Assembly (NCBI GenBank): GCA_036785375.1
Contig: JAWMAR010002507.1
Location: 1 to 64,000, forward strand
Direction of reading: 5' to 3'
From: Leucoraja ocellata
Lineage: Eukaryota
Length of the DNA stretch: 64,000 nt
Positions 6,201 to 43,234 of this stretch are shown here, in pieces. Each line of letters begins with the position of its first letter. The stretch's first letter is position 1. The notes under the pieces were generated by a model. That model was not told the DNA's origin and made no database searches. It saw only the letters and a list, made by a program, of their open reading frames with translations. The position numbers were made by a program, and so were the translations under genes.

Positions 6201-9200
6201 GTGGAGCGCATGTTGTTTTCCCCGTCGCACTAAGCTGATGATTAAATCGGTTGTGTGTCTGTTTGTTCCTGCCCAGGTCTGTCATCCTCCTTGCACAGCT
6301 CGCTGAGTAACCCATCCATACAAGCCTCGCTCACCAACTCCATGGTGCCCTCTCCACTGAGCAACCACTCCCTCAGCAACCCACCGATGCAATCGTCTCT
6401 GCGATCATCGCTCAGCAACCCGTCCATCCCCACCGCCTTGAACAGCTCGCCACGCCGTCGCCAGACCCCGGTCAGTCCGCTGACCCTCTCGCCGGGCATG
6501 GAGCCTCGCAGGTCACTGAGCAAACAGTTCTCGCCAACCATGTCGCCAACACTGTCTTCAATCGCACAGGTGAGTCTCCTCTCCCGTCACAGTCGGCTTG
6601 GCTGTGCACCGCAGCTCAGTTTATTGTCACGTGTGTAGTGTGTGTGTAGATCCAGGACAAGGGGTCACAGCTTAAAGATAAGGGGGAAATCCTTTAAAAC
6701 CGAGATGAGAAGAACTTTTTTCACGCAGAGAGTGGTGAATCTCTGGAACTCTCTGCCACAGAGGGTAGTTGAGGCCAGTTCATTGGCTATATTTAAGAGG
6801 GAGTTAGATGTGGCCCTTGTGGCTAAGGGGATCAGGGGGTATGGAGAGAAGGCAGGTACGGGATACTGAGTTGGATGATCAGCCGTGATCATATTGAATG
6901 GCGGTGCAGGCTCGAAGGGCCGAATGGCCTACTCCTGCACCTAATTTCTATGTTAGTGAGCCTTTGTTGTGTGCTAACCAGTCAGCGGAAAGACAGTACA
7001 TCAATACATTTACAGTGCGTAGATACATGGTAAGGGAATAACGTTTAGTGCAAGATAAAGTCCATTTACAGATAGTCTGAGGGTCACCATTGAGGTAGAT
7101 AGCAGTTCACGATTGGTCTCTGGTTGTGTTAGGATGGTTCATTTGCCCGATAACAGCTGGGAAGAAACTCTATTTTTCGGCGAGTGCCGGCGTCATTGAC
7201 TGACATATCAGGGTGGCCGAAAGATTTTGAACATTTCAAAATCCAGCGGCAACGAAACAAAATGTTGCGACACTTGAGGAGTTACCGCGCGTCGATCCGT
7301 CGTCACGCCGCGACTTTTGCGGTTACCTGATACGTCGGTCAATGATGCCGGCAGTCGCTGAAAAAATCTCCAAGTGGGACAGGCCCTTCCCTGAATCTGG
7401 AGGTGTGTGTTTTCACACTTGTGCACCTTTTGCCCGATGGAGGCGTGTACCTGTAAAGCTGCAACTCTTCCTCTACACAACCCCTGACTTAATGAATCCG
7501 AGTTCGGGTTGAGTTTATCGTCACATGTATCGAGGTACAGTGAAAAATCTCACACTTTCATTAGATTAGTACGGGCGTCAATGGCTACAGGGAGAATGGG
7601 ATTGAGTGGGAAAAATAGATCAGCTGTGATCGAATGGTGGAGCAGACTCGATGGGCTGAATGGCCTAATTCTGCTCCTATATCTTATGATCTTGCAGTCT
7701 CCTCAGTTGCTGCCCTGCTGGTTGGCGATGGGGCAGAAGATGAGGGAGAGTGTTCTCTGGGCAGTGGGCTGGAAGGGGGAGAATCCACCCGGTCGGTCTA
7801 ACCCTGGTCTTTGGTCTTGCAGGGAGTGGCCTTGGACACCAGCAGCATGGCGATGGAACACCTGCCACCTTACCCGATCTACCAGCACCTCCAGCAGCCC
7901 CAGCACTTGATGCACCAGACTCAGCAAGCACTGCTCCAATCACCAATCTCCACTATCCATCCACTCTCTCAGCCTCTGCCACTCGAGCTGCCCTCCCCCT
8001 GTGTAAGTCTCCAGATGTTTAAACATGCTACACATCTGTATTTATCCCTTTATTTATTTATTTAGTATTATTTATTTCGAACAGAATAAAAGAATAAAAA
8101 GCAAGTGTGAAACAGCAAACAAAAAAACAAAACAAGAATATTTATAGTGTCATAAACATTATCAATCAATAAATTAAATCATATGTGTCCGAAAAGGAGC
8201 AGGAAGAAGCCAAAGCTTATTCATTCCCACCCCTTATTCAACTGCTTGTAATTATCTTATACAAATGTAGCAGCTATATGTACACCATATGTACACCAGC
8301 CACTATATGTACATCACATTATTTACAGTTGAACATTAAATCAAATATTTACAAAGCCATACAAAAAAAGAAAAACAGAAAAAGAAAAGAAAAAAACCCT
8401 CATATACTATACAGTATCTTAGTCATATATACAACCCATCACTCTATATCTCATGTTTATGTTTTGGAGATATAGCATGGAAACAGGCCCTTCGGCCCAT
8501 CAAGTCCTCTATAAAAGGACAGAAGGGAGTAGGAGCAATTAAGTTGGTCTGCATGCATTTGGTCCATATCCCTCCAAACCTGCCCGATCCATGTAAACCA
8601 GTTCCTATCCACATTGAAACATACTGAATAGTGAAAGGCTTGGATAGAGTGGATGTGGAGAGGATGTTTCCTTTAGGAAGGAGATGAGGAGGAATTTCTT
8701 TAGTCAGAGTGTGGTGAATCGGTGAAATTCTTTGCCACAGACGGCTGTGGAGGCCACAAGTCAGTGGATATTTTTAAGGCAGAGATAGATGGATTCTTGA
8801 TTAGTGCGGGTGTCAGGGATTATGGGGAGAAGGCAGGAGAATGGGGTTAGGAGTCAAGTCAAGTCACTTTTATTCATATAGCACATTTAAAAAACAACTC
8901 TCGTTGGACAAAGTGCTTTACATTTGTATAAGAACAGTATAACAAACAACAGTGATTCATAGATTAAATACAAACATCACTACATACATATAGCCCTCGC
9001 TCAGAGGATGTCAAGAAAGGCTTGGGAGTAGAGATGAGTTTTAAGCCTCCACTTAAAGGAGGGAGAGATAGATCAGCTATGATTGAATGGTGGATTAGAC
9101 TTGATGGGCCGAATGACCTAATTCTGCTTCTATCACAAGACCTTATGGCCATGTACTCCGGGCGTTTGTGTGTCCTCTCTCACCCTGTGTGTTCTCTTTG

Positions 9201-12200
9201 ACAGAACGACATCGTGGATAATTTCTTCAACGACCCGTACTTTGAGCAGCAGTTACTGGCCAGTCAGTCCAAGCCTCTGTGCCAGCAGGTAAAGGAGTTT
9301 GCCATCGGCAGGCCTGTGGACTACCACAGTTGTGTAGGGATAGCAGAGAATGACCGGGTAGTGGTCAACTGGTTATTGTCCACCCTGGTGTCCTTGCTGA
9401 TCACAGTGTGACGTGGTCTTCATCCTCACCTGTAGAGTCTAAGTCTTGTGTTGACGTCAGCCCATCTGTTACCTGCGTTACCTTGCACACCTTGTGGCTT
9501 GGAACATGTCTCCCCCTTAGCAACCCCCGTATCCCCCTCACCTGTCACCCCTCACCTGTCCCCATCATCCCCCCCCCCCCACACACCTGGCCCCCTCACC
9601 TGCCACCCCTCACCTGTCCCCATCATCTCCCCCCCACTCACCTGTCCCCCTCACCCCCCCCCCCACTCACCTGTCCCCCTCAGCGTAATAGACTAGATGG
9701 GCCGAATGGCCTAATTCTGCGTGTCTATATCACATGACCTTATGACCCTGGAAATGGAGCCTGACTGGGATAATCCTCCATGAAGAGTCAATTCTTTAAT
9801 TGTAAATACCGACAAGGGAACAATTAAAATCTTACTGGTTGCTGGGAAGAAGCTGTTCTTGAACCTGGAGGTCACGGTTTTCAGGCCTCTGCTTGAGTTT
9901 AGTTTTGGTTTCAGTTTAGTTTATTGTCATATGTATCGAGGTACAGTGAAAAGCTTTTGTTGCATGCTAACCAGTGTGCAGAAAGACAACCACTTGTTCT
10001 TAGCCCCCCCCCCCCCCCTCGTTCGTGGCTGAGTCTCCAGGGTGCTATTCTCTATATAGAGGACACCAGTGCGTGACTGTTTAACGTGGGGAGACTGGTG
10101 CACAGACGGCCACCACACGGTCCTTGACAGATCTGGGTCAGGATCCAGTGGCATGGAGTCCAAGACCACCTTGGTTGGGCACCAACCTGGAAGTTCTGAA
10201 TCTTCTTCCCGATGGTTGGAGTGAGATGAGACGGGTGTATCTCCAAGATTTGCTAATGTCAACAGTGGTTGGTGCTTCAAGTCGGGATTTATCCAGTAAT
10301 TGGATGAACGACCCACTATATTCAGACTGATCCAAGCATTAGAACCATCTCATCCACCATCTCCTCGCACTGCTACCATCGGGAAGAAAAATCAGGAGCC
10401 TGAGAACCGTGACAATAGACAATAGGTGCAGGAGTGGACCATTCGGCCCTTCGAGCTAGCACCGCCATTCAATGTGAGCTCCTTGATCTCCATTGCCGGC
10501 TCCAGGCCCGTCCCTCACACCCCACCCGCTCCCCTCCACTGTAGAACACCATATGCTGGAGTAACTCAGCGGGTCAGGCAGCATCGTTCTGTCGGCACCC
10601 TATACCTGGAGACTCGTTGCATAATTTGTGTATAGTATTGTGTACAATACAAAGAATTTCACCGTGACGTGTCTCATTTGATAATAAAGTATCAATCAGG
10701 AGATGGGCAGGTGACATTGCAGCTCTGGGGAAAGTCACAAGCCTACCCCAATCAGTCCAAAACGTCACCTGCCCATTCCCTCCACAGACGCTGCCTGACC
10801 AGCTGAGTTACTCCAACACTCGGTGTTTTGTTTCCAGACTCCAGAGCCTGCAGTCTCTTGCCCTCCACAGTAGTGTTGTTGCTCAAGGTTGTTCTGTTCC
10901 TCTCCCCCCCCCCCCAGCTGAACCAGTTCAACGTGTTGGAGCGGCCGTCTAGCTCCCTGCCGATGAGCGGGAGCAACTTCTACAACCTGGGCTCCAGCCT
11001 TCACTTCTCACAGGCAGCCTTGCTGGGTCTGAGCGGGAGCTACGGCAGCCTCCAGGATCCACTGCCACAGCTGAAACCCAACCAGTTCTACTCCACCTGC
11101 ACCGGCAACATCCCCAACATCATCCTGACAGGTGAGCAGTCCCAGGTGTGACAGGTGAGGGAGGGGAGGCTCACGCTGACTGTGGGGAGGTGAAGTCTTG
11201 GTGGGAGGATGCTCAGGAAGCACAAATATGCCAAGGACTGCCCTTTCACCCTGACTGAGGTCAGGGGTGATCCAAGAATGACCGACCGGGTGTCCTTAAG
11301 AACTTGGGGTCGGGGCAGCGCAGCAGGTAGAGCTGCTGCCTCACAGCACCAGAGACCAGGGTCTTCTTATTGTCCCAGTCTCAGACCCGGAGTCCTGTCA
11401 GTACTGGGTGGGTGATTCATGGTGAGGGGGCTGCTGGTAACATTTGCCAAACTCTCAATCCTTTATCTGTCTCCTTGTAGGTACCTCCTTCTCCTTAAAT
11501 GTCAAAGCAGCAGTGGGGTAAAGTGTAAAGGAGGTCTGTGGGGCAAGTTTCTTTTTATACACAGAAACATAGAAATATAGAAATTAGGTGCAGGAGTAGG
11601 CCATTCGGCCCTTCGAGCCTGCACCGCCATTCAATATGATCATGGCTGATCATCCAACTCAGTATCCCGTACCTGCCTTCTCTCCATACCCCCTGATCCC
11701 CTTAGCCACAAGGGCCACATCTAACTCCCTCTTAAATATAGCCAATGAACTAGCCTCAACTACCCTCTGTGGCAGAGAGTTCCAGAGATTCAACACTCTC
11801 TGTGTGAAAAAAGTTCTTCTCATCTCGGTTTTAAAGGATTTCCCCCTTATCCTTATGCTGTGACCCCTTGTCCTGGAGCTGGAGAAGGTAGGCTAAAGGT
11901 AGGCTAAGGCTAACCTAAGATAAGCTAATCGAAAACTAGGCCCAGGTAAACTCTTCAGGGAGGTAAGGGACCATCAGGACAGGACAGGATGAGGGTAGAG
12001 GTGTGAATTACCGATAGTCACCTCATTCTGCGCCCATTCCTCCCCAGGTGACTCGCCCCCCAGCCTGTCCAAGGACATCAGCAGCGCGCTGGCTGGAGTC
12101 ACGGACACCACCTTCGACACGGACACACAGTTCCAACTGGACGATGATCTGAAGATGGAGCCGCTGAGCCTGGACGGCCTGAGCATGCTGAGTGACCCGG

Positions 12201-12256
12201 ACCTGGTGCTGACTGACCCCTCCATCGAAGACACATTCAGGACTGACCGCATGTAA
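255..12256 (+). CDS. CRTC3: CREB-regulated transcription coactivator 3, 3' portion (10 exons; 5' exons lie upstream of the window)
   Basis: AG/GT-bounded exons 255-356, 1776-1812, 3594-3679, 4366-4415, 5261-5478, 6277-6569, 7823-8002, 9205-9288, 10918-11131, 12048-12256 (TAA). They encode [21 protein letters not shown] (CRTC3-type), [29 protein letters not shown] and C-terminal [25 protein letters not shown]. Phases are consistent from 3594 onward; the first two exons carry apparent indels. Confidence 0.9.
700..1402. mobile_element. Cluster of three SINE copies (two +, one -)
   Basis: SINE head and body at ~700-1000 (+), 1055-1170 (+) and 1195-1402 (-). Confidence 0.8.
2126..2748 (-). mobile_element. 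CR1-clade LINE (HER1-like) 3' fragment
   Basis: [37 protein letters not shown]2 C-terminus plus conserved 3' tail. Confidence 0.9.
4455..5020 (-). mobile_element. Degenerate non-LTR retrotransposon 3' end (L1/Tx1-like)
   Basis: T-rich tail with TTTAT-type signal followed by GC-richer coding-like sequence; similar architecture at ~60110-60560. Clade assignment is by resemblance only. Confidence 0.4.
5059..5090 (-). ncRNA. Minimal hammerhead-ribozyme-like core in a Penelope-type repeat
   Basis: Minus strand GT-CTGAAGA-A-GGGTC-TC-GACCC-GAAAC-GTC-AC. Confidence 0.55.
6651..6952 (+). mobile_element. CR1-clade LINE 3' fragment
   Basis: [35 protein letters not shown] plus tail GGCCGAATGGCCTACTCCTGCACCTA. 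Confidence 0.92.
11565..11876 (-). mobile_element. CR1-clade LINE 3' fragment, near-identical inverted partner of 6651-6952
   Basis: Reverse complement matches 6651-6952 with only a few substitutions. Confidence 0.92.
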
Positions 12257-18284: not shown

Positions 18285-18621
18285 ATTCCCGATGTTGGGG
18301 AAGTCCAGAACAAGGGGCCACACACAGTTTAAGGATAAGGGGGAAATCTTTTAGGACCGAGATGAGATAAACATTTTTCACACAGAGAGTGGTGAATCTG
18401 TGGAATTCTCTGCCACAGAAGGTAGTTGAGGCCACAGTTCATTGGCTATATTTAAGAGGGAGTTAGATGTGGCCCTTGTGGCTAAAGGGATCAGGGGGTA
18501 TGGAGAGAAGGCAGGTACAGGATATTGAGTTGGATGATCAGCCATGATCATATTGAATGGCGAATGGTGCAGGCTCGAAGGGCCGAATGACCGACTCCTG
18601 CACCTATTGTCTATGTTTCTA
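18285..18621 (+). mobile_element. CR1-clade LINE 3' fragment nested in another repeat
   Basis: Splits the host sequence GATACATGAT|AAGGGAATAAC, which is intact at ~25535. Confidence 0.88.
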
Positions 18622-18724
18622 TAAGGGAATAACGGCTAGAGCAAGGCAAATGTTTTCGGTGAAGATGTTGTCTCACTGGGGGGGGGCTCCGGCCTTGGCG
18701 GGCTCTCGGACAGTCACCACTCTC

Positions 18725-18760
18725 GGCCAATCGGGGGCGGGCGTTGCAGGGGTATATAAA
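18725..18760 (+). promoter_or_regulatory. Compact Pol II promoter: CCAAT box, GC box, TATA box
   Basis: GGCCAATC (CCAAT 18727-18731), GGGGGCGGG (18733-18741) and TATATAAA (18753-18760) at the edge of a CpG-rich island, with no AUG-initiated ORF downstream. Confidence 0.6.
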
Positions 18761-18799
18761 GAGGCGGCGGGCATTGGACGGAGGAGAAGAGAACGGACG

Positions 18800-19039
18800 G
18801 TGGACGGAGCGGGCGGTGGCCGGAGCGGAGAGTGGCCGGAGCGGGCGGTGGACGGAGCGGGCGGTGGCCGGAGCGGAGAGTGGCCGGAGCGGGCGGTGGA
18901 CGGAGCGGGCAGTGGCCGGAGCGGAGAGTGGCCGGAGCGGGCGGTGGACGGAGCGGGCAGTGGCCGGAGCGGGCGGTGGACGGAGCGGAGACTGGCCGGA
19001 GCGGGCGGTGGCCGGAGCGGAGAGTGGCCGGAGCGGGCG
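18800..19039 (+). repeat. GC-rich minisatellite, 15 x 16 bp with 48-bp higher-order periodicity
   Basis: Units GTGG(A/C)CGGAGCGG(GCG/AGA/GCA) counted directly. Confidence 0.95.
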
Positions 19040-19143
19040 GTGGTCATCCCGGGCCATTGAGCGGTCTGCTATATCCGCGGGTCACCCTCCCGCACATTCT
19101 GCCCCTCACCCCGACCCCCCCCCCCCATCCTCACCCCAATCAA

Positions 19144-19177
19144 GGTTCTTCTAAGAGCCACCATAAAGAGCTACAAC
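19144..19177 (+). terminator. Histone-type 3' stem-loop plus histone downstream element (HDE), copy 1
   Basis: CAA-GGTTCT-TCTA-AGAGCC-ACCAT-AAAGAGCTACAAC: 6-bp stem with one G-U pair, UYUN loop, ACC 3' flank and AAAGAG core. Confidence 0.7.
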
Positions 19178-19348
19178 CTCGAGTGGTGTCCGGTGGGTCA
19201 GTTGGTGCGGACCGAGCGCGGGTGGACCGAGGGAGAGTTCCCGCTACTGTCCAGGAGGGAACGGACTGACCACACCATGGGGCAGCGACCTTCACCCGGC
19301 GGGATCTGAGGACACCCACCCTTGTCCGTTCAAGGCGACCACAAGCGG

Positions 19349-19375
19349 CCAAAGGCTCTTCCAAGAGCTACAACC
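19349..19375 (+). terminator. Histone-type stem-loop fused to HDE, copy 2
   Basis: CCAAA-GGCTCT-TCCA-AGAGCT-ACAACC: canonical CCAAA 5' flank; the spacer is deleted between the two AAGAGC direct repeats. Confidence 0.55.
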
Positions 19376-19621
19376 TCGGGCAGTCTCCGGGCCGGGGGTG
19401 GACCAAGCGAGGGTGGACAGCCGCTGACCACAGCAGTCCTGGGTAGTGAAGACCGATCACCCGCCCGGACCAGTGCGAGCTTCGCCCGGCCGGGCTCTGG
19501 CCACTGACCCATGTCCGTCCAACGTGGTCAAGGGCTTCCCGCTGTCGACCACCCCAAAGGGACCAACGTCGTGGTCAAAGTCCCGCCGTCTCCACCCCTC
19601 CCTCACCCCCGACCCGACAAA

Positions 19622-19655
19622 GGCTCTTCCAAGAGCCGCTGGAAAGAGCTACAAC
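19622..19655 (+). terminator. Histone-type stem-loop plus HDE, copy 3
   Basis: CAAA-GGCTCT-TCCA-AGAGCC-GCTGG-AAAGAGCTACAAC: perfect canonical stem, but loop position 3 is C rather than U. Confidence 0.6.
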
Positions 19656-20609
19656 CTCGGCCGGATTCGGTGTCCCGGGCCGGGGGGTTGACGTGGTGCG
19701 GGCCAAGCGCGGGTAGACCAGGGGTGAACTTCTCGGCCCCACACCCGGACCAGTCTCCGGGGGAGTGGGAGCCACCGACATGTCGCTCCACAAACCACCC
19801 CAAGTGTGGGAGAGAGACACACAATGCTGGAGAAACTCAGCGGCTGAGGCAGCATCTATGGAGATTTTTCGGGTCGAGACCCTTCTCCATAGATGCTGCC
19901 TCACCCGCTGAGTTTCTCCAGTATTTCGTGTCCACCATCGATTTTATCCAGCACCTGCAGATCTTTCTCACACGCCCAGCCGGGAGAGAACGCTCGGGGC
20001 AGTCCCGTGTTACCGGTTTCAGCGTCGAGCCGAACCCGGCCGGGCTCGGAGACACCACCGTCCAAACATGTGCAGGAAGGAACTGAAGATACTGCAGCAG
20101 CATCAAGGACCCACACCATCCTGGTTACACACTCATCTCACCACTAACTTCAGGTAGAAGGTACAGGAGCCTGAAAACTGCAACGACCAAGTTCAGGAAT
20201 AGCTGCTTCCCCACAGCCATTAAACTTGGCTCGAAAAAACTAACTGTTTGATTAGGTTATTGATAGGGACAGAGAGGGCCCTCGTGTTAAAATGCTAAAT
20301 TAGGTCAGGCCAACTTTGAGGGTATGAGTGAAGTTCTCACTCGAGTTGATTGGGCAGGTTTAGTAAGTAAGTAAGTTTATTGGCCAAGTATTCACATACC
20401 AGGAATTTGCCTTGGTGCTCTGCCCACAAGCAACAACATGACATATAGTGACAGTTACGAATGACTCAGAAAACACTAAACGTTAATAATAAAACATTAA
20501 TGATAAAACACCATTGATCAAGCATGTGAACTAACAAAATACCAGATCACAGGAAGGCTACAGATTTTTGGCTGTTGAGTAGAGCAACTTGCCCATGTTG
20601 ACCAAGATC

Positions 20610-21096: not shown

Positions 21097-21304
21097 ACCG
21101 GAACCACATCGACACTTGCTTCACCTGGCCCACATCACTCTAACCTCTCCTAGAAACATAGAAATTAGGTGCAGGAGTAGTCCATTCGGCCCTTCGAGCC
21201 TGCACCGCCACTCAAAACTCTCCTGTCCAAATGTTTTTAAATGCTGTTATAATACCTGCCTCAGGTACCATGAACCCACACTGTGTGAACATTTACCCCT
21301 CCCC

Positions 21305-21855
21305 TAGTGGGGCGCTCCCTCATTAAGCCCCTCCCTCAGCGGGGGTGCCCACTCATTAAGCCCCTCCCACATTGGATGCCCTCACTAAGCCCCGCCCTCA
21401 GTGGGGGCGTTCCCTTACTAAGCCCCGCTCCCACGGGGCGTGGCGTCGCCCCACTAAGCCCCGCCCTCGCTGTGGCGTTCCCTCACTAGGCCCCGCCCTC
21501 ACTGGGGCGTTCCCTCACTAGGCCCTGCCCTCACTGGGGGCGTTCCCTTACTAAGCCCCGCCCTCCGCGGGGGCGTTCCCTCTAAGCCCCGCTCTCAGCG
21601 GGGGGCGTTCCCTCGATAAGCCCCGCCCTCACTAACGCGTTCCCTCACTAGGACCCGCCCTCACTGGGGGCGTTCCCTCACTAAGCCCCGCTTACAGTGG
21701 GGGGCGTTCCCTCACTAAACCCCGCCCTCACGGGGGGCGCTCCCTCACTAGACCCCGCCCTCACTGACGCATTCCCTCTAAGCCCCGCCCTCACTGACGC
21801 ATTCCCTCACTAAGCCCCGCCCCCACTGACGCGTTCCCTCACTAAGCCCCGCCCA
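21305..21855 (+). repeat. ~32-bp minisatellite (~17 copies) in the MFAP1 promoter, most units carrying a GC box
   Basis: Consensus AAGCCCCGCCCTCACTGGGGGCGTTCCCTCACT, ending ~50 bp before the MFAP1 ATG. Confidence 0.92.
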
Positions 21856-21870
21856 CATTGCCGTCTCCAC

Positions 21871-21882
21871 GCCGCCATCTTG
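21871..21882 (+). promoter_or_regulatory. YY1 motif at the MFAP1 5' end
   Basis: GCCGCCATCTTG matches CGCCATNTT, ~26 bp before the ATG in a CpG island. Confidence 0.6.
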
Positions 21883-21907
21883 CGGCCCCGGCACTATCAC
21901 CATCACC

Positions 21908-24900
21908 ATGGCGGCCCCGCTCAGCCTCAGCCTCAGCGCCAAGCAGCCCCCCATCCAGTCCACGGCGGGGGCCGTGCCCGTCCTCAATGAGAAGGGTGAG
22001 TGAGTGAGGGGGCTGACGTACGCGAGGCCCAGGCTCTGCGGCCTAGTGGCGGCCGCGACCCCGGGCTGGGAGTCGAGACCCGCCGGGCGGCGGCACCGCG
22101 AACTCGGCCGCTTCCCTTCACCACCCGGGGGGGGTCGGTACACGGCTCCTGGGATCTTGCCGCGCCTGTCGTGGGATTATAAACATATTATATATATATA
22201 TATGTGTGTGTGTGTGAAGATAGACACGAAACGCTGGAGTAACTCAGCGGGACGGGCAACATCTCTGGAGAAAAGGAACGCGGAAGCTGCCCGTCCCGCT
22301 GAGTTACTCCAGCATCTTGTGTCTTATCCTCAGTGTAAACCAGCATCCAATACAATGCAATACGGTTTTATTCGTCACATTGCACAGAAAGTGCAAGTGA
22401 AATGAATTTGACAGCAGCAGTACAATGAGAAAGAACACACAATAAAAAATGATCACAAACATAAACATCAAGCATCTGCAGTTCCTTCCTACACATTAAT
22501 ATCCATTGACTTGGCCTCAACAGCCTTCTGTGGCAAAGAATCCCAGATTCACCACCCTCTGACACTATATACANNNNNNNNNNNNNNNNNNNNNNNNNNN
22601 NNNNNNNNNNNNNNNNNNNNNNNNNNNNNNNNNNNNNNNNNNNNNNNNNNNNNNNNNNNNNNNNNNNNNNNNNNNNNNNNNNNNNNNNNNNNNNNNNNNN
22701 NNNNNNNNNNNNNNNNNNNNNNNNNNNNNNNNNNNNNNNNNNNNNNNNNNNNNNNNNNNNNNNNNNNNNNNNNNNNNNNNNNNNNNNNNNNNNNNNNNNN
22801 NNNNNNNNNNNNNNNNNNNNNNNNNNNNNNNNNNNNNNNNNNNNNNNNNNNNNNNNNATGCAGCACAGAACGCCACAGAAGATCCTTCTGAAGAAGGGTC
22901 TCGACCCAAAACATCACCCATTCCTTCTCTCCAGAGATGCTGCCTGTCCCGCTGTGTTACTCCAGCTTTTTGTGTCTATCTTCGGTTTAAACCCGCATCT
23001 GCAGTTCCTTCCTACACAGGAGATCCTTCTTCCCTGTGGCTGTGAAACTGTATAACTACTCCCGCTTCTGTCGTGGGGTAGACTCACTCCCCTTCCCCTC
23101 ACCGCTCACCCCTCACCCCTCACCTGCACATCCCGGACTTTCCACTCGTCACTTTAATATCATGTTTCGATACGAAACGATAAAAACTTTACTCATCCCC
23201 GGGGGGGAAATTAGTCTGCCGACAGTCACAACACAAGGTACATGAAAACTTGAAACTAAAATTGAAAAAAGAATAAGACATGTACAAGATTTCATGTATC
23301 TTGTTGTATTTTATGACTTGGCAAAACAATTTCCCTCCTGGGATAAATAAAGTTCTATCATTACCGTATCATATGTATGTATTTGTGTGTGTGTATATGT
23401 GTGTGTATTTATATATGAACAAACTAAACTTTATTTTCATGTTTATTACTTGTTTACAGTATGTTTACATATTGTGTTGTGCTGCTGCAAGTAAGAATGT
23501 CATTGTTCTATCTGGGACACATGACAATAAAACACTCTTGGCTCGCTTGACTCTTGATCCCGCTGTGTACAAATACACATCTCATCCCAATAGTGGCCCG
23601 GTTTCAATTAAATCAGTGATCAGGTTTCACGCGGTCATTTAACTTCCCGGGGAACTGTACAATACTCCCACAGCCTCTCACCGCCCTTCGGCTGTTTGCA
23701 GCCCCAATTCCCTCCCACAATCTCTCCCCTCCTGAGCCAGTCTGGGTCGGGAGTACTGAAGCTCTGCCTCCCTTCTAGAATGGGCTACAGTGATCAACAA
23801 TAGTTAGACTCACACAGCACTGAAATAAGCCTTTCGGCCCCAACTCTGTCCATGCCAGCCAAGAACCATGCCAACTTGTTACATGTGACAAAGTATTCAT
23901 TCATTCATTCTTTGCCCAGGTGAGGTGTCTATGGAAAAAGTGAAGGTGAAGCGCTATGTGTCAGGTAAGCGGCCTGACTATGCACCGATGGAATCCTCGG
24001 ACGAGGAGGAAGAGGACTTCCAGTTTGTGAAGAAGGCGAAGGATCCAGAAGCGGAGCCTGAGGTGAAGGAGGAACTGGCCAACGACCCACGTCTCAAACG
24101 CCTCCAGAACCGACTGTCCGAGGATGTTGAAGAAAGGTGAGAGAACCCCACTCCTCGTCTCACCTGAGCTGGGGACCGTGTAGTCTTCAGGGCAGATGCA
24201 GCGCCCGCCCTCCACTGGAGCTTCTTACAGACTGACTGTAGGTTTATAAACCCCCTCAGGTCAGCGTTCCTGTTTCCCATTGCAAATACTGTTTTTCACC
24301 CAGAGAGTTGTGAATCTGTGGAATTCTCTGCCACAGAAGGCAGTGGAGGCCAATTCACTGGATGTTTTCAAGAGAGAGTTAGATTTAGCTCTTTAGGGCT
24401 AACGGAATCAAGGGCTATGGGGAAAAAGAAGGAACGGGGTACTGATTCTGGATGATTAGCCGTGATCATGATCAGCTGCGGTGGACTTAGAGAGGGAATG
24501 CCGGGGTTACTTGAAGTTATAGAAATCAATATTTATACCACTGGGGTGTAACCTGTCCAAACAAAACAATTTGGTTTGCCTCACTCTGACAATGGAGGAG
24601 GCCTAGGACAGAAAGGTCAGTGGGAATGGGATGGAGAATTAAAGTGTCCGTCAACCGGGAGATCAATTTAATGTTTGTGCTGAGCCCAACATGAGGGCAG
24701 TTTCGTTCCCGCTGCTGTCCGAGCGTTTCTGAAGCTGCCGTCAGTAACGTTTCCTTCGTCCGTCTTGTAGGCTGGCTCGCCACCGGATGATCGTGGAACC
24801 GGAGGTGGTGGTGGAGGCAGAGTCTGAGGATGAGGCCGAGGCCTGGCAGGTGGAACGGGAGGACACCAGTGAGGAGGAGGAGGAGGAGGTGGATGATGAG

Positions 24901-28482: not shown

Positions 28483-30078
28483 GTGTGTGTGTGTGGGGCT
28501 CTGGACTGTGGTATGGTGTGGGTGAGGGGTATTTTCCCACTGAGTTCTCTGCCTGTGTGTGTGGTGTGTGGTGTGTGTGTGGCTCTGGGCTGTGGTATGG
28601 TGTGGGTGAGGGGTGTTTTTTCACTGAGTTCTCTGTCTGTGTACAGCATGGAGAAGGAGAAGGCGGAGATCGACAGGATGCACAACCTGACGGAGGAGGA
28701 GAGGCGGGCTGAGCTCCGAGCCAACAGCAAGGCCATCACCAACAAGGCCAGCAAAGGGAAGTACAAGTTCCTGCAGAAGTACTATCACAGAGGAGCCTTC
28801 TTCATGGTGAGTTCAATGAATGAATATGTTCATTGGCCAAGTATGTTCACATACAAGGAATTTGCCTTGGTGCTCCGCTCGCAAGTAACAACACGTCATA
28901 CGGTGACAATTAAAAATGACACATTAAACATTATAAAATAATAAAACATGGAGGCAACCAACTACATTTTGAGCTTCCCACGAGTTTGTGTGCACCAGTC
29001 AGTGTTCACTTAAGATAGACATGCTGGAGTAACACAGCGGGACAGGCAGCATCTCTAGAGAGAAGGAATGAATGACGTTTCGGGTTGAGCTTCTTCAGAC
29101 TGAGAAGAAGGCTTTTGACCAGAAACGTCACCTCCTCTCCAGAGATGCTGCCTGACCCGCTGTGTTACTCCAGCACTTTGTTCTTTTTGCTGTCAACCAG
29201 CATCTTCAGTTCCTTGTGTCTACATGGTCACTGCCCAGGTGTTGGTTATAGTTCATGGTGTGGTGCACTGGGATATAGTGACAAGCTTCTGTCTGCCTGC
29301 TCTCCAGTCAGTGTTGTCCTGCCCTCCACCACCCAATGGAGGGGCGGATATGTTGAACACACAGTTTGTCCACGAATGTTGATCGATGTGTAGGTTTGGT
29401 GAACTGAGTCTTGGCACATCTGCCGTTCCGCAGGATGAAGAGGAGGATCTGTACAAACGGGATTTCAGCTCGCCCACACTGGAGGACCATTTCAACAAGA
29501 CCATCTTACCCAAGGTTATGCAGGTAAGACATGCCTGCACTGCCAGCAGCCTTGTGTTCCCGTGCAATGTGTGTGCGCGCGTGTGTGGGGGGATAATTGC
29601 TGTCTGCGGAAGGAATGCATCATATAAAGGCTGGGAGAGCCACGGGCGATTACAGAGAACATTGAACGCTCTACATGCGGGTGAAGCATTTTTTAATTTT
29701 ATTTTCCCTACTGAACAAGGCCTTCATTCAGTAATTGCAATTTATGGGGGGCAATACCGAGCGGGTTCTGGTGAGAAAGTGATTCATCCACTGCATCTTT
29801 CAAGGGCCACAAACTATTTCTGTGCTGAGATTCTTTGAGCCGTGTTTATCTGCTGAATTTTGTTTCTTTTCTACCCAACCCACAAATCAAATTAGGTGAA
29901 GAACTTTGGGCGGTCGGGGCGGACCAAGTACACTCACCTGGTGGACCAAGACACCACCTCGTTTGATTCAGCCTGGGCCCAGGAATCTGCCCAGAACAGC
30001 AAGTTCTTCAAGCAGCGAGCAGCCGGCGTGCGAGATGTCTTCGAGAGGCCCTCAGCCAAGAAGAGGAAGACCACGTAA
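21908..30078 (+). CDS. MFAP1: Microfibrillar-associated protein 1 (spliceosomal B-complex protein, PRPF38A partner), 9 exons, ~441 aa
   Basis: Exons 21908-21995, 23920-24136, 24771-24900, 25833-26020, 26940-27048, 27273-27433, 28647-28806, 29434-29523, 29896-30078. They encode [57 protein letters not shown] and [21 protein letters not shown]. The exon 4 acceptor appears one G short. Confidence 0.97.
22574..22857. other. Assembly gap (MFAP1 intron 1)
   Basis: Run of N. Confidence 1.
27905..28646 (+). repeat. Compound minisatellite in MFAP1 intron 6: 8 copies of a ~55-bp core separated by (TG)n
   Basis: GGGGCTCTGGACTGTGGTATGGTGTGGGTGAGGG..TTTT..CACTGAGTTCTCTG at ~27917, 28047, 28150, 28237, 28318, 28387, 28495, 28580. 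Confidence 0.95.
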
Positions 30079-34000: not shown

Positions 34001-37000
34001 TTATAGGAGAAGAATTAGGCCATTCGGCCCATCAAGTCTACTCTGCCATTCGGTCATGTCTTTCTCCCTCAACCCGATTCTCCTGCCTTCTCCCCGGAAC
34101 CCCTGACACCCGTAGCAGGGTAGAAAGTGGGAACCCTGTTCGCATGGAGTGGTGGGGGGGGGGGGGGGGTGTCTGGAACACGTTGGTGGGGCCGGTGGTG
34201 AAGGCAGGTGGGAAAGCTGCGTTTAGGAAGCGTTTAGATTGGGACGCGGAGATGCAGGGAATAGAGGGATATGGATCAGGGAGATGAGGACCGGTTAACT
34301 AGGCATCAGGTACGCCACAGAGATTGTGGGCCGAAGGGCCTGTTCCTGCGCTGTTCTATACTAGATTCTGCGTTCTATGTACCACAGGACCCAAAACTAC
34401 CTTCCCAATCTGTAGGTGAATAAGTGTAGCCTCAGTGGTCAGGTTAGAAAACCTGAGATGTGGTTTTTAAATAATAATGGTCATATTAAATAATCAGTAA
34501 ATTATGATATAAATGAAATTGATAAATAATATATTGATTATATAGACGATGATTAAATAATTGTAATTCTTTACTGCGGGTGTCAGGGGTTATGGGGAGA
34601 AGGCAGGAGAATGGGGCTAGGAGGGAGAGATAGATGGGCCATGATTCAATGGCGGAGCAGACTTGATGGGCCGAATGGCTTAATTCTATCACATCACTTA
34701 TGACACTTACGATATTAAATAATCGCTAAGTAATGATGGTGGAAAATAGATCAAACACTTATAGCGGCAAAAATGCTGGAGAAATTCAGCAGGTGCAGCA
34801 GCATCTATGGAGCGAAGGAAATAGGCAACGTTTCGGGTCGAAACCCTGAAGGAACTAGGCAACGTTTCGGGTAGAAACCCTGAAGGAAATAGGCAACGTT
34901 TCGGGTCGAAACCCTGAAGGAAATAGGCAACGTTTCGGGTCGAAACCCTGAAGGAAATAGGCAACGTATCGGGTCGAAACACTGAAGGAAATAGGCAACA
35001 TTTCGGGCCGAAACCCTTCCGGGTTTCGGCCCGAAACGTTGCCTATTTCCTTCGCTCCATAGATGCTGCTGCACCCACTGAGTTTCTCCAGCACTTTTGT
35101 CTACCTTCAATTTTCCAGCATCTGCAGTTCCTTCTTAAACACTTATAGCGGGGAATCGCAGGAGTCCAGCCAAAAACTCAGCGGACACAAGTTGTGTGCT
35201 TCAGACATGTTTTAATCGGTCAGATACAGCTCCCTACTCCTCAAATGGACACGGACGTTGCCTGACCTTAAGTACCTCTAAGGGTCAATCCGGTGACCTG
35301 CACCTCCCACACCGACACACCTAACCCCTCCCTCCAGAGACGAGGGTTCGCTCTGCCGTAGCCCAACACCAGGTGCCGCCACACACTACACTAAAATATT
35401 AAAATTAAACTCACCTTTTGGTGCCATCGGTCCTGGGCTCCCCTGGAATGGAAGCACAGAGGCTGCTATGAAACACACCGGTACAAATGTATGTTGAACT
35501 TGTGGCTGAAGTTTACAGGAGTGACTACAGACTCCAAGCAACTAATCATTGAAGAGTCAAAGAGATACATATATTATAGAAACATATACAATTCTCAAGG
35601 GATTAGGCTGGCTTGATGCAGGAAACATGTTCCCCATGCTGGGGGAGTCCAGAACCAGGGGGTCACGGCTTAAGAATAAGGGGTCGGCCATTTAGGACTG
35701 AGACGAGGAAAAACCTTTTCACCCAGAGAGTTATGAATCTGTGTGGAATTCTCTGCCACAGAAGGCAGTGGAGGCCGATTCACTAGATGTTTTCAAGAGA
35801 GAGTTAGATTTTAGCTCTTAGGGCTAATGGAATCAAGGGATGTGGGGAGAAAGCAGGAACGGGGTACTGATTTTGGATGATCAGCCATGATCATATTGAA
35901 TGGTGGTGCTGGCTCAAAGGGCCGAATGGCCTACTCCTGCACCTATTTTCTATGTTTCTTATTCGATACAGAAACAGGCTCTTCAGCCCCTGAAGGCCAT
36001 TCTGATCATCAACCACCCATTTACACTGATCCTACATTAATCCCATATTTTACTTTTTTTTCCCCAACATTTTTCCACATCCCCAAAGGTTCTACCACTC
36101 AGCTGCTTAATTTCCCACCTAGAATAAATAACGTTGTATCGTATCGTATCGTATTCCCCTCTTGATTTTCTGCACCTCTATCCGCTCATCTCTCAGCCTT
36201 ATGTGTGGGAGGAAACTTCTCAGAGAAAACCCACATAGGTCACGGGGAGATCATACAAACTCCGTACAGACAGCACCCGTAGACTGGCAAAATGGATAAT
36301 CAGGTCCGCTGTGTCGGGAGGTACTGCAGATGCTGGTTTACACCGAAGATAGACACAAAAAGCTGGAGTACCTCAGCGGGACAGACAGCTGTCGGTGAAT
36401 CGAAGAGCAGAGGACATAGGTTAATGGTGAAGGGGAATGTGAGGGGTAACCTTTTGATATAGTAATGGTGATATGGAACAAGCTGCCAGAGGAGGTATCC
36501 CAACATTGAACAGTTCTGGGTCGAGACCCTTCTTCAGTCTGAAACAAAACGTCATCTATTCCTTATCTCCAGAGAGGCTGTCTAACCCGCTGAGTTACTC
36601 CAGCTTTTTGTTTCCATAACTAGGTGAGGCTGTGGAACCAAGGATGGCGGAAAGCCAGGTGGAGGGCCTGTACTCCAGGTGGTGGGGCACAGTTCCGCCT
36701 GAGAGACGCAGAGAGTTTCTCCGATTTACCTGGAACCAGATGGTCCTGCCGTTGGCGTCACGGAGGGTCTGCATTCCCGACACATCGTAGCAACGGAGCC
36801 ACGCAGCAAAGGCAGAGGATCCGTCAGTACGGTCAGAGTTGTAGCCCTTGCCCCCTGAGTCATAGAGAGGGAGAGAGAGTCATCCAGCGCGGAAACAGGC
36901 CCTTCAGCCCAACTTGCCCACACCAGCCAACACGTCCCAGCTACACAAGTCCCACCTGCCTGCGCTTGGTCCATATCCCTACAAACCTGTCGTATCCATG

Positions 37001-40000
37001 TACCTGTTTAACTGTTAAATGTTGTGATAGTCCCAACCCCAACTACCTCCTCTGGCAACTTGTTCCATACACCCACCACCTTTTCACCCCCTCTCGCAAG
37101 CTCACACTCTCTAGTCCTTGCAACATCCTCGTAAATTTTCTCTGTACCCATTCCAGCTTGACAACATCTTTCCTATAAAAGGTGTTTTTTTTTAGAGATA
37201 CAGCGCGGAAACAGGCCCTTCGGCCCACCGAGTCCATACTGACCTGCGATCCCCGCACATTAACACTATCCTACACACACTAGGGACAATTTACACATAC
37301 ACCAAGCCAATTAACCGACAAACCTGTACGTCTTTGGAGTGTGGGAGGAAACCAAAGATCTCGGAGAAAACCCACGCAGGTCACGGGGAGAACGTGCAAA
37401 CTCCGTACAGACAGCGCCCGTAGTTGGGATTGAACCCTGGTCTCTGGTGCTGCAAGCGCTGTAAGGCAGTGACTCTACCGCTGCGCCACCATGACTGGTT
37501 GTGGTTGGGGTAAGATGGATTACACTGTTCTATCAGCGCAGGTTGAATTGAAAACAACAGCATGGAAACAGATCCTTTTGCCCACCTTGACTCTCCCATC
37601 AATGTGAATCACACCAGTGCTGTTTGCTTGCGTAAGATTGACTTACCCAAATTAATGACCTCCATTGGCAGCAGGTGGCACAGCTCAAGAATATCAGGGT
37701 TCTCCAACTTCACCTTTACCTTCTTGCTCAGGGTCAACTCAGCTGTCTTGAGAAAATAGAGGTGGACAAGCAGTTAGTTGCTGCTCGCTGCCAGTGGCCC
37801 CGACTCCACTTACTAGAAGCTGAACGTATCAACCCTTACATCCAGTTCCATTTCCAGGCTCCTCTCCCCCCCCACCTCACCTCACCCTGCTCCCGGCCAT
37901 TCTCTCACCTGTGGAGTGGCCAATACGTATCTCCTCATCTTCTTCCATTTCCACATCCGTTCCTCTACAGGGGTTCATCCAAGTAACAACGCAACACTGC
38001 CACCTTCCTAGACGTTACCACGGTGTTGCTTGGAGGGTTGAACTGAAGCCTCCCTCCTGAACCGGGAGGTCCCAACCCCAACACCTTTCCCACACTCCAT
38101 ATGATTTAATGAACTAGACTGATGTCCACCAGATGCCAAGGTGGAAACTGAGATGACCCTGGGTCTGGACACGCAAGGGACTGCAGGTGCTGGAATCCTG
38201 AGCAAAATGCAAAGTGTTGGAGGAACTCTGCAGGTCAGGCAGCACCTGTGGAGAACATGGATTGCTGATGTTTTGGGTTTAGGATCTATTGCAGCCTCTA
38301 TAGAGTGGCCATGTTTTGAGGAGAGTTCGAAATGGAACAGTAAAATGGAGACACAATGAACTGCAGATGCCTTTTGTTTTAGACGGTTCTGCTAAGAGCA
38401 GGCATAGTCTCAATGGGTCATGGGGTGGTATAGCAAGGGAACAGGCCCTGGGGCATAACGTGTTCATGTCCACCAAGATGTCCCATCTAAGCTCGTGCCA
38501 AGTGTATTAGGCTAGATCCAGGCTAGATGCAGGAAGATTGTTCCCGATGTTGGGGAAGTCCAGAACTAGGGGTCACACAGTTTAAGGATAAGAGGGAAAT
38601 CTTTTAGAACCGAGATGAGAAAATCATTTTTTACACAGAGAGTGGTGAATCTGTGGAATTCTCTGCCACAGAAGGTAGTTGAGGCCACAGTTCATTGGCT
38701 ATATTTAAGAGGGAGTTAGATGTGGCCCTTGTTGGTAAAGGTATCAGGGGGTATGGAGAGAAGGCAGGTACGGGATACCGAGTTGGATGATCAGCCATGA
38801 TCATATTGAATGGCGGTGCAGGCTCGAAGGGCTGAATGGCCTCTACTCCTGCACTTATTTTCTATGTTTCTATTATAAATGTTATAATACATGCCTCAAC
38901 TACCCTCTCTGGCAACTCGTTCCATACACCCACTGCCCTTTGAATAGGAAAGGTTGTCCATCAGGTCCCCATGAAATCTTTCCCCCTCACCTTCAAGTTC
39001 AAGTTCAAGTGAGTTTATTGTCATGTGTCCCTGATAGGACAATGAAATTCTTGCTTTGCTTCAGCACACAGCACACAGTAAACATTTACTACTTAAATCT
39101 GTGCCTGACCTTGGGTGCTGTCTATGTGGAGTTTGCACTTCTCTCTGTGACCGTGTGGGATTCCACTGGGTGCTCTGGTCTCCTCTCACATCCAATGGAC
39201 GTGCGGGTTTGTAGGTTAATTGGCTTCGGTAAATTGTCTCTAGAGTGGGTGAGAAAGTGGAATAGCAGGGTGATCGATGGTTAGGGTGGACGTGATGGGC
39301 CGAAGGGCCTGTTTCCGTGCTGTATCTTTCTTTCAATCAATTCAAGCAATCAAGTTTTGGGGAGTGTAGATAGTTAAATAGATCGAGGCGCAGCTGTTAA
39401 TATATGGATGGTTTATCTATATGTGTAACACAAAGACAGTATCAAGGAAGTGGGTGATCGATGGACAGTGTGGACTCGGTGGGCTGAATGGCCTGTTTCC
39501 ATGCTGTACCTCTGAACTAAGTTTTCCTGTCTAGGAGGCATGGTCACAGAAAATAAAATAGTGGAATGGTGAGTGGTCTAACAACTTAATGGTTGTGGAT
39601 GAAAGATCTTTCCATAGATTGAAGGTGTTGTACATCACAACATTGCGCAGAGCTGTTGCCTTTCTTTGTGCCTCTCTGGTGAAAATTCACAAGTTCACAG
39701 GTTCTAGGAGAAGAATTAGGCCATTCGGCCCAACGAGTCCACACCGCCATTCTATCCCATTTTCCTGCCTTCTCCCCATGACCCTCGACACCCGTTCTCT
39801 GTGTGCATACATGACACAGTGTGTTACCTTGCCTCTGAAGCACCCTGTCCTTACCGGCTCCTTGTGGAGTGACGCTTCCAATACAGTCCTCGCTCTCTCA
39901 AATGGAGGCACCTTCAACCTGAAGATCAAAGGAGATTCAAAGATAGACACAAAAAACTGGAGCAACTCCTTCTGCAGTTGTACAGAGCCCTAGTGAGACC

Positions 40001-42767: not shown

Positions 42768-43234
42768 CCCGCACAGCAACCTACAGCAGGGATAAGACAA
42801 CATGTATCCTGAGAGGCACTTGTATGTCATGTTGTTACTTGTGGGTGGAGCACCAAGTCAAATTCCTTGTATGTAAATACTCGGCCAATAAACTTACTTA
42901 CTTAAAGTAAACACCTGGTATTGTTGGTTCACTCTTGTGGAACTCGCTGGATCTACGTCCCACACCCAGAATGAAGGGGGTCCCAGCGGGGGGTGGGGGT
43001 GGGGCAGAAACGTGACGACTTGCGTACAGCCAAGGTGAGATCTGCTCTGTGATTCCACCAGCTTCTATGCATAGCTTTGCACTGTACCTCGGCGCATGTG
43101 ACAATAACACATCACTGCATCGTGATCTCTTTCAACTTACCGAGGCCCCTTTGCTATTTTAATATTAATATTCGCTGGGAAATATCTGCCCTGTAGCAGC
43201 AGAAGTGAAAGTGAGTCCTATATGTGATATATTT

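What the first reader, a model, noticed from the sequence alone, without database searches (positions are those of the whole stretch)
18700..19180. Histone-style transcription unit with no histone ORF: CCAAT/GC/TATA promoter, 16-bp repeat array, histone stem-loop and U7 element
Seen: CCAAT (18727), GC box (18733) and TATATAAA (18753); then ~380 nt with no ATG, mostly 15 x 16-bp G-rich repeats and a C-rich tract; then CAA-GGTTCT-TCTA-AGAGCC-ACCAT-AAAGAGCTACAAC. No AATAAA is present. Established: a 6-bp stem/4-nt UYUN loop (bound by SLBP) plus an AAAGAG-core downstream element (pairing with U7 snRNA) is the 3'-end signal of replication-dependent histone mRNAs, essentially not used by other genes, and those genes have compact CCAAT/TATA promoters. 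AAAGAGCTACAAC matches 11 of 13 positions of the complement of the mammalian U7 5' end as I recall it (AAAGAGCTGTAAC). Inference: either a non-polyadenylated, histone-mRNA-sized non-coding RNA using SLBP/U7, or an orphon histone gene whose ORF was replaced by a minisatellite. Retained CpG density suggests the locus is unmethylated or young.
Basis: partly seen in the sequence, partly recalled or inferred. Interest (0 to 1): 0.88.

Follow-up and report, generated by a model that had tools for sequence, protein, structure and literature searches.

The report
Compact histone-end signals in non-coding genes
This promoter-like stretch, which encodes no protein, is one of a dispersed family of units sharing a strongly conserved histone-type RNA hairpin and downstream box spaced only 5-10 bases apart (13-16 in this animal's histone genes), so their predicted RNAs likely dock the histone-message processing machinery rather than being cut by it.

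Summary
The unit runs on to about 19810 and holds three stem-loop/AAAGAGCTACAAC modules. The gap from stem-loop to the purine box is 5 nt, against 13-16 nt in this genome's histone genes. The module is not unique: 42 complete copies lie on 23 contigs (both haplotypes; controls 0), none on histone-cluster contigs. Gaps are 5, 8 or 10 nt, never 11-19. Three otherwise dissimilar unit types share only the module, a CCAAT/GC/TATA layout and the 11-mer of the window's minisatellite. In the largest type, 24 of 27 copies are identical at all 40 non-spacer positions, while flanks are 85-97% alike with indels (p about 1e-7 to 1e-9), which points to purifying selection. No ORF is conserved, there is no histone-gene flank similarity and no paired LTRs were seen. 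Rfam Histone3 scores 19.9 bits (cut-off 34). No U7 gene was found and expression is not shown. Best reading: non-coding Pol II genes whose RNA binds SLBP and U7 in a geometry too short to cut (0.4). Main rival: a leaky compact 3'-end signal (0.3). An orphon histone gene is unlikely.

The parts
18690..18783 (+). Predicted Pol II promoter: E2F-like TTGGCGGG 18695-18702 (label recalled), CCAAT 18727-18731, GC box 18733-18741, TATATAAA 18753-18760; start site about 18783 inferred from TATA distance
   Evidence: same layout in the C61:2.23 Mb unit and in family B, where both CCAAT boxes, the GC box and TATAAAAGG are invariant in 9 of 9 aligned promoters; CpG o/e 1.09
18794..19043 (+). 16-bp G-rich minisatellite, 15.6 copies (16.3 in the other haplotype); holds 10 copies of TGGCCGGAGCG, the 11-mer also found in the sister-unit promoters
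19083..19138 (+). C-rich tract before module 1; similar tracts precede module 3 and modules of sister units
   Evidence: (D3)
19139..19181 (+). Module 1: stem-loop 19144-19159 (loop UCUA, compatible with SLBP by PMC4604434), 5-nt spacer 19160-19164, purine box AAAGAGCTACAACCTCG 19165-19181
19349..19379 (+). Module 2: fused copy in which the 3' stem arm and the box are the same bases (likely a slip between the two AAGAGC repeats); loop UCCA
19617..19659 (+). Module 3: stem-loop 19622-19637 (loop UCCA, predicted weak SLBP binding), 5-nt spacer, box 17 of 17 identical to module 1 while flanks are 64-74% alike
19182..19810 (+). Diverged internal repeats (about 200-290 nt each) carrying modules 2 and 3; found elsewhere only in the other haplotype
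11999..12253 (+). Context: last coding exon of the upstream CRTC (TORC) gene
   Evidence: Pfam TORC_C
21300..21998 (+). Context: CpG island and inferred first exon (ATG about 21908) of the downstream MFAP1 gene, which has its own promoter region, so the unit is intergenic
   Evidence: Pfam MFAP1 hit at 29383-29835

Best explanation
The element is one member of a dispersed family of predicted non-coding Pol II genes in which only the promoter and a 45-nt stem-loop-plus-purine-box module are conserved, and the module likely binds SLBP and U7 snRNP side by side in a spacing too short to be cut, so the RNA would tether or soak up the histone 3'-end machinery. Shown: the module, its copies, its 5/6/8/10-nt spacers, its conservation, and the lack of a conserved ORF. 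Inferred: transcription from the CCAAT/GC/TATA promoter; SLBP binding (module 1 and family B keep loop U1 and U3, both basal G-C pairs, the top U-A pair and an A-rich 5' flank); U7 binding to the box. [quoted passage not shown]
For: 42 complete modules on 23 contigs, reversed-pattern controls 0. Spacers up to 19 nt were allowed but only 5 (16 copies), 8 (25) and 10 (1) occur; histone stem-loops have 13-16. The 5-nt length recurs with unrelated sequences in the window, the C61:2.23 Mb unit, C106 and short B units. A C106 variant with a different stem (A-U at pair 5), a 6-nt spacer and a histone-like box AAAGAGTTGTG shows the geometry is not tied to one sequence. Flank-ascertained B copies: 24 of 27 complete copies are identical at 40 of 40 non-spacer positions. 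In 13 non-redundant copies 41 of 46 motif columns are invariant against 161 of 454 flank columns (Fisher p 1.6e-9 without CpG-type columns, 1.2e-7 on gap-free columns). The window's downstream module 3 keeps its box 17/17, which fits read-through. Predicted duplex with the Rfam U7 consensus is -11.9 to -17.4 kcal/mol for complete modules against a histone mean of -15.8 (n=38). Fixed-distance cleavage: PMC7026596 section 24. Distance is critical: PMC1635294.
Against: No transcript is shown, and no U7 gene was found in this genome, so pairing was tested only against the Rfam consensus, which mismatches box positions 9-10 that are nearly invariant in the family. Window modules 2 and 3 and the three main modules of the C61:2.23 Mb unit have C at loop position 3, which greatly impairs SLBP binding (PMC4604434 section 13). 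Family B has a C-A mismatch at pair 4. In long B units the promoter-near copy is fused, lacks the box or is broken while the far copy is intact, which a terminator explains as well or better. 12 of 39 flank-ascertained hits lack a complete module and were left out of the conservation test. The deletion experiments of Cho et al. 1995 were not read (title only; content recalled). No strand-asymmetric substitution signal of germline transcription was found.
Confidence: 0.4

Rival explanations
1. The module is a compact, probably inefficient 3'-end or termination signal: SLBP and U7 still direct CPSF73 to cut near the hairpin, giving non-polyadenylated non-coding RNAs of 0.23 to over 7 kb, and tandem copies act as fail-safes.
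For: In long B units the near copy has decayed in at least two different ways while a far copy stays intact; short units keep a complete module 256-729 nt from TATA; no AATAAA within 800 nt after module 3; B hairpin arms that flank the module are not homogenised, as expected if the downstream arm is not in the RNA.
Against: [quoted passage not shown]
Confidence: 0.3
2. The units are self-duplicating (segmental-duplication-type) cassettes whose RNA uses the hairpin for stability or export, and the invariant box is read by something other than canonical U7, such as a U7 variant or a protein.
For: B copies sit in unrelated upstream flanks, with homology ending about 50-350 bp upstream of the promoter's 5' motif; 11 of 20 sites lie in the outer eighth of their contigs; box positions 9-10 mismatch the Rfam U7 consensus yet are nearly invariant; Harbinger-type transposase copies in this genome carry a canonical histone hairpin and box.
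Against: The window unit is single-copy apart from its allele; the 5' boundary is ragged; no second promoter copy (paired LTR) was found in the fetched stretches; copies include both promoter and downstream sequence, so they are not retroposed; variants on C17, C504, C712 and C106 pair better with canonical U7.
Confidence: 0.13
3. The modules act at the DNA level or are neutral relics, and no functional RNA is made.
For: No RNA run is listed as a holder and no asymmetry signal was found; several copies are degenerate.
Against: Invariance of stem, loop, 5' flank and box around a spacer of free sequence; two pairs with changes on both sides (17 of 500 shuffles reach this, weak); all modules lie on the promoter's sense strand.
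Confidence: 0.12
4. An orphon replication-dependent histone gene whose ORF was replaced by a minisatellite.
For: Histone-type hairpin, a compact CCAAT/TATA layout and a TATA-to-hairpin distance of about 390 nt.
Against: No promoter or UTR similarity to 41 histone-cluster loci; no histone Pfam hit in the four long frames tested; no copy with this box at histone spacing; sister units have unrelated bodies of 0.23 to over 7 kb.
Confidence: 0.04

Closest known systems
Replication-dependent histone mRNA 3'-end signal (stem-loop Rfam RF00032 plus HDE; SLBP, U7 snRNP, CPSF73)
   Same: 6-bp stem with 4-nt loop, basal G-C pairs, top U-A pair, A-rich 5' flank, AAAGAG purine core, no nearby poly(A) signal in the window unit, CCAAT/TATA promoter layout
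   Different: No histone ORF; spacer 5-10 nt instead of 13-16; several modules per unit; many loops have C at position 3 or the stem has a C-A mismatch; RF00032 below cut-off (19.9 bits in the window, 25.6 for family B); dispersed outside histone clusters
HDE-like motifs in human HERV1/LTR12 and lincRNAs repressed by U7 through NF-Y (bioRxiv 10.1101/2023.08.25.554787, passages read)
   Same: Non-histone, non-coding transcription units with CCAAT boxes and a U7-complementary box; a U7 role other than cleavage
   Different: Here a full histone-type hairpin precedes the box at a fixed short distance, and no LTR pair was seen; the passages read mention no hairpin next to the LTR12 motif
Long hairpin (endo-siRNA) precursor genes such as Drosophila hpRNAs (recalled)
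   Same: Family B modules sit in the loop of 74-295-bp inverted repeats
   Different: Arms are no more alike within a copy (91%) than between copies (92-93%); the window unit has no such hairpin
Harbinger/PIF transposase copies with a histone hairpin in this same genome (L102-L105)
   Same: Non-histone use of the histone stem-loop and purine box
   Different: Canonical 16-nt spacing after a transposase ORF; no sequence link to the family beyond common repeats

Membership tests
Replication-dependent histone gene | Intronless histone ORF between promoter and hairpin | tested here: not met
   No ATG 18783-19276; no histone Pfam hit in 4 window frames; family B frames broken by indels
Replication-dependent histone gene | Location in or similarity to histone clusters | tested here: not met
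   Intergenic between CRTC and MFAP1; no flank similarity to 41 histone-cluster loci; no family hit on contigs C294, C435, C352, C368, C1700, C2041, C2198
Histone 3'-end signal (RF00032 + HDE) | 6-bp stem, 4-nt loop with U1 and U3, basal G-C pairs, top U-A pair | tested here: met
   Module 1 meets all; modules 2 and 3 fail U3; family B keeps the loop but has a C-A mismatch at pair 4
Histone 3'-end signal (RF00032 + HDE) | RF00032 score at or above the gathering cut-off of 34 | tested here: not met
   19.9 bits, E 0.02; family B 25.6 bits
Histone 3'-end signal (RF00032 + HDE) | Purine core about 16 nt after the stem | tested here: not met
   5 nt in the window; 5, 8 or 10 nt in 42 of 42 complete copies; 13-16 nt in 28 of 35 histone-cluster stem-loops, 7 not callable
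Histone 3'-end signal (RF00032 + HDE) | Complementarity to this species' U7 snRNA | tested here: inconclusive
   U7 gene not found; against the Rfam consensus 8-9 contiguous pairs plus 5 more after a 2-nt mismatch, -11.9 and -13.8 kcal/mol
Histone 3'-end signal (RF00032 + HDE) | Non-polyadenylated RNA ending about 5 nt after the stem; SLBP bound | not testable with these tools
   No RNA holder listed; only contigs were available
LTR retroelement or solo LTR | Paired terminal repeats, sharp ends, many dispersed copies of the whole segment | tested here: not met
   19050-19800 found only in the allele; B 5' boundary ragged; no second promoter copy in the fetched stretches; target-site duplications and a primer-binding site were not searched systematically
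SINE or retroposed copy | Copies begin at the transcript start and end at the RNA 3' end | tested here: not met
   Copies carry upstream promoter and up to 2.3 kb of shared downstream sequence
Hairpin-RNA (endo-siRNA) gene | Long inverted repeat kept complementary within each copy | tested here: not met
   Within-copy 91% against between-copy 92-93% in 13 copies; absent from the window unit

The most novel reading that the evidence does not exclude
A previously undescribed class of vertebrate non-coding genes whose only conserved RNA feature is an uncuttable mimic of the histone pre-mRNA end (hairpin, 5-nt tail, then the U7 box directly), acting as a natural decoy or scaffold for SLBP and the scarce U7 snRNP, for example to tune histone mRNA processing or to seed histone-locus-type bodies in germ cells.
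Probability: 0.3. Interest if true: 0.9.

Novelty: new variant of a known kind. Interest (0 to 1): 0.72.

Why it matters
SLBP was found bound only to histone RNAs in human cells (PMC4604434, passages read). A multi-copy non-coding family that keeps both the SLBP hairpin and the U7 box under strong constraint, but at a fixed short spacing, would be a second client of this machinery. It offers natural substrates for asking what U7 snRNP does when it cannot reach a cut site, whether the 'ruler' differs in this lineage, and whether RNAs can regulate or organise histone processing. Each reading makes a different, cheap prediction about where the RNA ends.

Tried and rejected
U7 gene hunt: the RF00066 search scored 65 of about 625,000 candidates and gave two 26-28-bit hits without the terminal hairpin; three patterns gave 0, 3 and 27 hits, none convincing by folding, and 20 of the 27 were rescanned with Rfam without a U7 match. 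Absence is not shown: the gene may be divergent or withheld. Expression: no RNA holder listed for 18600-19800. Laid on a family B stretch (L082:6900-8000), two possibly-RNA contig sets covered only a common repeat, apart from low-depth (about 2) contig cover at 7099-7216 and near 7270-7307 in run X5; too weak to count. Mutational strand asymmetry up- and downstream of the far module: no consistent signal with two references, one of 12 tests at p 0.012 in the opposite direction. Hairpin-RNA idea: arms not homogenised. Hidden protein in family B: frames broken, no Pfam hit for one copy read with X at stops. Link to the Harbinger copies: only shared common repeats. A variant U7 complementary to the box: histone boxes fit the Rfam consensus slightly better on average (-15.8 against -14.2); undecided. 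Other taxa: 20 metagenome hits, none with a histone-type stem (best 5 of 6 pairs with the wrong loop), and 0 viral hits; these collections say nothing about related fishes. The 49-bp hairpin at 19816-19932 and its weak miRNA matches lie in common repeat sequence. A genome-wide search with the module's covariance model was not possible, so more divergent members may be missed.

Full report
Observation. The boxes are at the stated places: CCAAT 18727, GC box 18733, TATATAAA 18753, a 16-bp array of 15.6 copies at 18794-19043, a 6-bp stem with loop UCUA at 19144-19159 and AAAGAGCTACAAC at 19165-19177. There is no ATG before 19277 and no AATAAA before 20488. Rfam finds nothing at gathering level in the window, and Histone3 scores 19.9 bits against a cut-off of 34. 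CCAAT followed by TATA is not above chance in the window alone. The unit is intergenic, between the last CRTC coding exon (11999-12253) and MFAP1, which has its own CpG island (150 of 458 candidate frames were scanned).

Copies. The window is the whole of G000:C2507. A search with 19050-19800 found one full match (C61:8.48 Mb, 96%, with collinear flanks, read as the other haplotype) and otherwise only 45-62-nt matches to the module. Patterns gave 37 and 39 hits with 0 in reversed controls; their union is 42 complete modules on 23 contigs, haplotype pairs included. They fall into three unit types. A1 is the window unit (3 modules). A2, at C61:2.23 Mb, has CCAAT/GC/TATA, no long ORF, a first module 256 nt from TATA, and 5 copies counting degenerate ones. 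B is a duplicated family with a shared promoter and bodies of 0.67 to over 7 kb, filled with CR1- and RTE-like debris (labels recalled). By blastn, A1, A2 and B share only the module and its immediate C-rich flank. They also share the 11-mer TGGCCGGAGCG, which forms the window's minisatellite, sits in the A2 and B promoters, and was in no other locus held at that point. So the minisatellite is an expanded family motif rather than a replaced ORF.

Geometry. In the histone clusters (75 RF00032 hits; H2A, H2B, H3, H4 and H1 labelled by peptide tags) the purine core starts 13-16 nt after the stem in 28 of 35 stem-loops, 23 of them at 16; 7 were not callable. One search gives 13-19 nt in 38 of 54 but looked only from offset 8. 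In the family the gap is 5 (16 copies), 8 (25) or 10 (1), and none has 11-19 although allowed it. The 5-nt length recurs with unrelated letters. At C106 one promoter is followed by five modules of three different sequences, one with a changed stem pair, a 6-nt gap and a histone-like box.

Selection. To avoid picking copies by the motif, I searched with the upstream flank alone (40 of 157 candidates scored). Of 39 distinct hits, 27 carry a complete module, 2 a fused one, 3 a hairpin without the box and 7 no intact hairpin. The 12 incomplete hits are promoter-near or truncated copies and were left out of the next test. 24 of the 27 are identical at all 40 non-spacer positions. In 13 copies under 95% alike, 41 of 46 motif columns are invariant against 161 of 454 flank columns (p 1.6e-9 without CpG-type columns, 1.2e-7 on gap-free columns). 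In B promoters both CCAAT boxes, the GC box and TATAAAAGG are invariant in 9 of 9. Inside the window, modules 1 and 3 share the box 17/17 and the hairpin 14/16 but the spacer only 1/5, with flanks 64-74% alike. Covariation in the stem is weak: two pairs changed on both sides, 17 of 500 shuffles.

Binding. Human SLBP tolerates C at loop position 2 but is greatly impaired by C at position 3 (PMC4604434 section 13). Module 1 and family B pass this test; window modules 2 and 3 and most A2 modules do not. No U7 gene was found. Against the Rfam consensus complete modules pair at -11.9 to -17.4 kcal/mol, within the histone range (mean -15.8), with a 2-nt mismatch at box positions 9-10 that is partly repaired in the C17 and C504 variants.

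Mechanism. Shown: a selected two-part module at fixed short spacing in ORF-less, promoter-bearing units. Inferred: transcription and binding of SLBP and U7. [quoted passage not shown] Cho et al. 1995 report by title that shortening it interferes with processing (reference lists; the paper was not read, and its content is recalled). With a 16-nt mode and a 5-nt tail the ruler is about 11 nt, which for gaps of 5-10 falls inside the hairpin. I therefore favour binding without cutting, so that the RNA is a tether or decoy (0.4). The leaky-terminator rival (0.3) is close: in long B units the near copy has decayed and the far one is intact, though this may reflect only two or three events. A selfish duplicating cassette (0.13), a DNA-level or neutral relic (0.12) and a histone orphon (0.04) follow.

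Negative results. B modules lie in the loop of 74-295-bp inverted repeats, but the arms are not homogenised. There is no transcription-linked strand asymmetry. No RNA holder was listed, and contig cover on a B stretch was too weak to count. Metagenome and viral pattern scans gave only chance hits or none.

Known versus new. It works like the histone 3' signal in its parts but fails membership on ORF, spacing, Rfam score and location. The nearest non-cleavage precedent is U7 acting on HDE-like motifs in LTR12 lincRNAs (bioRxiv 10.1101/2023.08.25.554787, passages). Nine full-text searches (listings and abstract starts only) showed no description of such a family. The library lacks most subscription papers and repeat-database entries, and no supplements were read. 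Other papers seen: PMC5054213 (part 1 of 4), PMC9744234, PMC3884669 and PMC9179366 (passages). Earlier AI notes from other genomes report non-histone genes and one gene-less cassette with histone-type ends. They are unchecked leads; they weaken the 'histones only' premise, and the few lines shown do not mention short spacing.

Verdict. A real, selected, multi-copy non-coding element using a compact variant of the histone 3' signal; mechanism unresolved between docking and leaky cutting. New variant of a known kind; interest 0.72.

Noticed in passing
L102-L105 (G000 C52:101839, C355:560385, C90:4064671, C257:3449893): Four of the RF00032 hits over cut-off follow broken Harbinger/PIF-type transposase frames (Pfam DDE_Tnp_4, E 2.7e-21 for L102), not histone genes: a perfect stem-loop, ACCCA and a purine box at histone spacing. 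I recall a hairpin being noted in fish Harbingers, but searches did not find it in print.
   Followed up: partly
L095:725-800 and equivalent places in family B: An AATAAA about 270 nt after TATA is present in all 9 aligned B promoters, followed in most by a GTGAGT 5'-splice-site-like sequence; B transcripts may be spliced, or protected from early polyadenylation.
   Followed up: no
L039:1501-1539 and L040 (G000 C14:1.62 and 1.94 Mb): U7-like 5' and Sm segment (28.4 bits) without the terminal hairpin; a possible U7 pseudogene or a chance match.
   Followed up: partly
window 21309-21857: 32-bp GC-box-rich tandem array (16.8 copies) directly upstream of the inferred MFAP1 first exon.
   Followed up: no
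window 55571-56530 (+): A 320-codon uninterrupted frame with two CCCH zinc fingers, possibly a makorin-like retrocopy (label recalled); NEIL1 (36598-42857, -) and COMM-domain (46297-49270, -) exons lie upstream.
   Followed up: no
Family B sites: 11 of 20 sites lie in the outer eighth of their contigs, and units contain degenerate telomere-like repeats; this may mean a subtelomeric location or assembly breaks at duplications.
   Followed up: partly
window 53795-54242, 61970-62409, 63184-63564: Further young minisatellites (47 bp at 100% matches; 25 bp; 66 bp at 95%).
   Followed up: no
L106 (G000 C367:1761137): A lone histone-like stem-loop (30.9 bits) amid repeats, with no histone ORF labelled upstream.
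   Followed up: no
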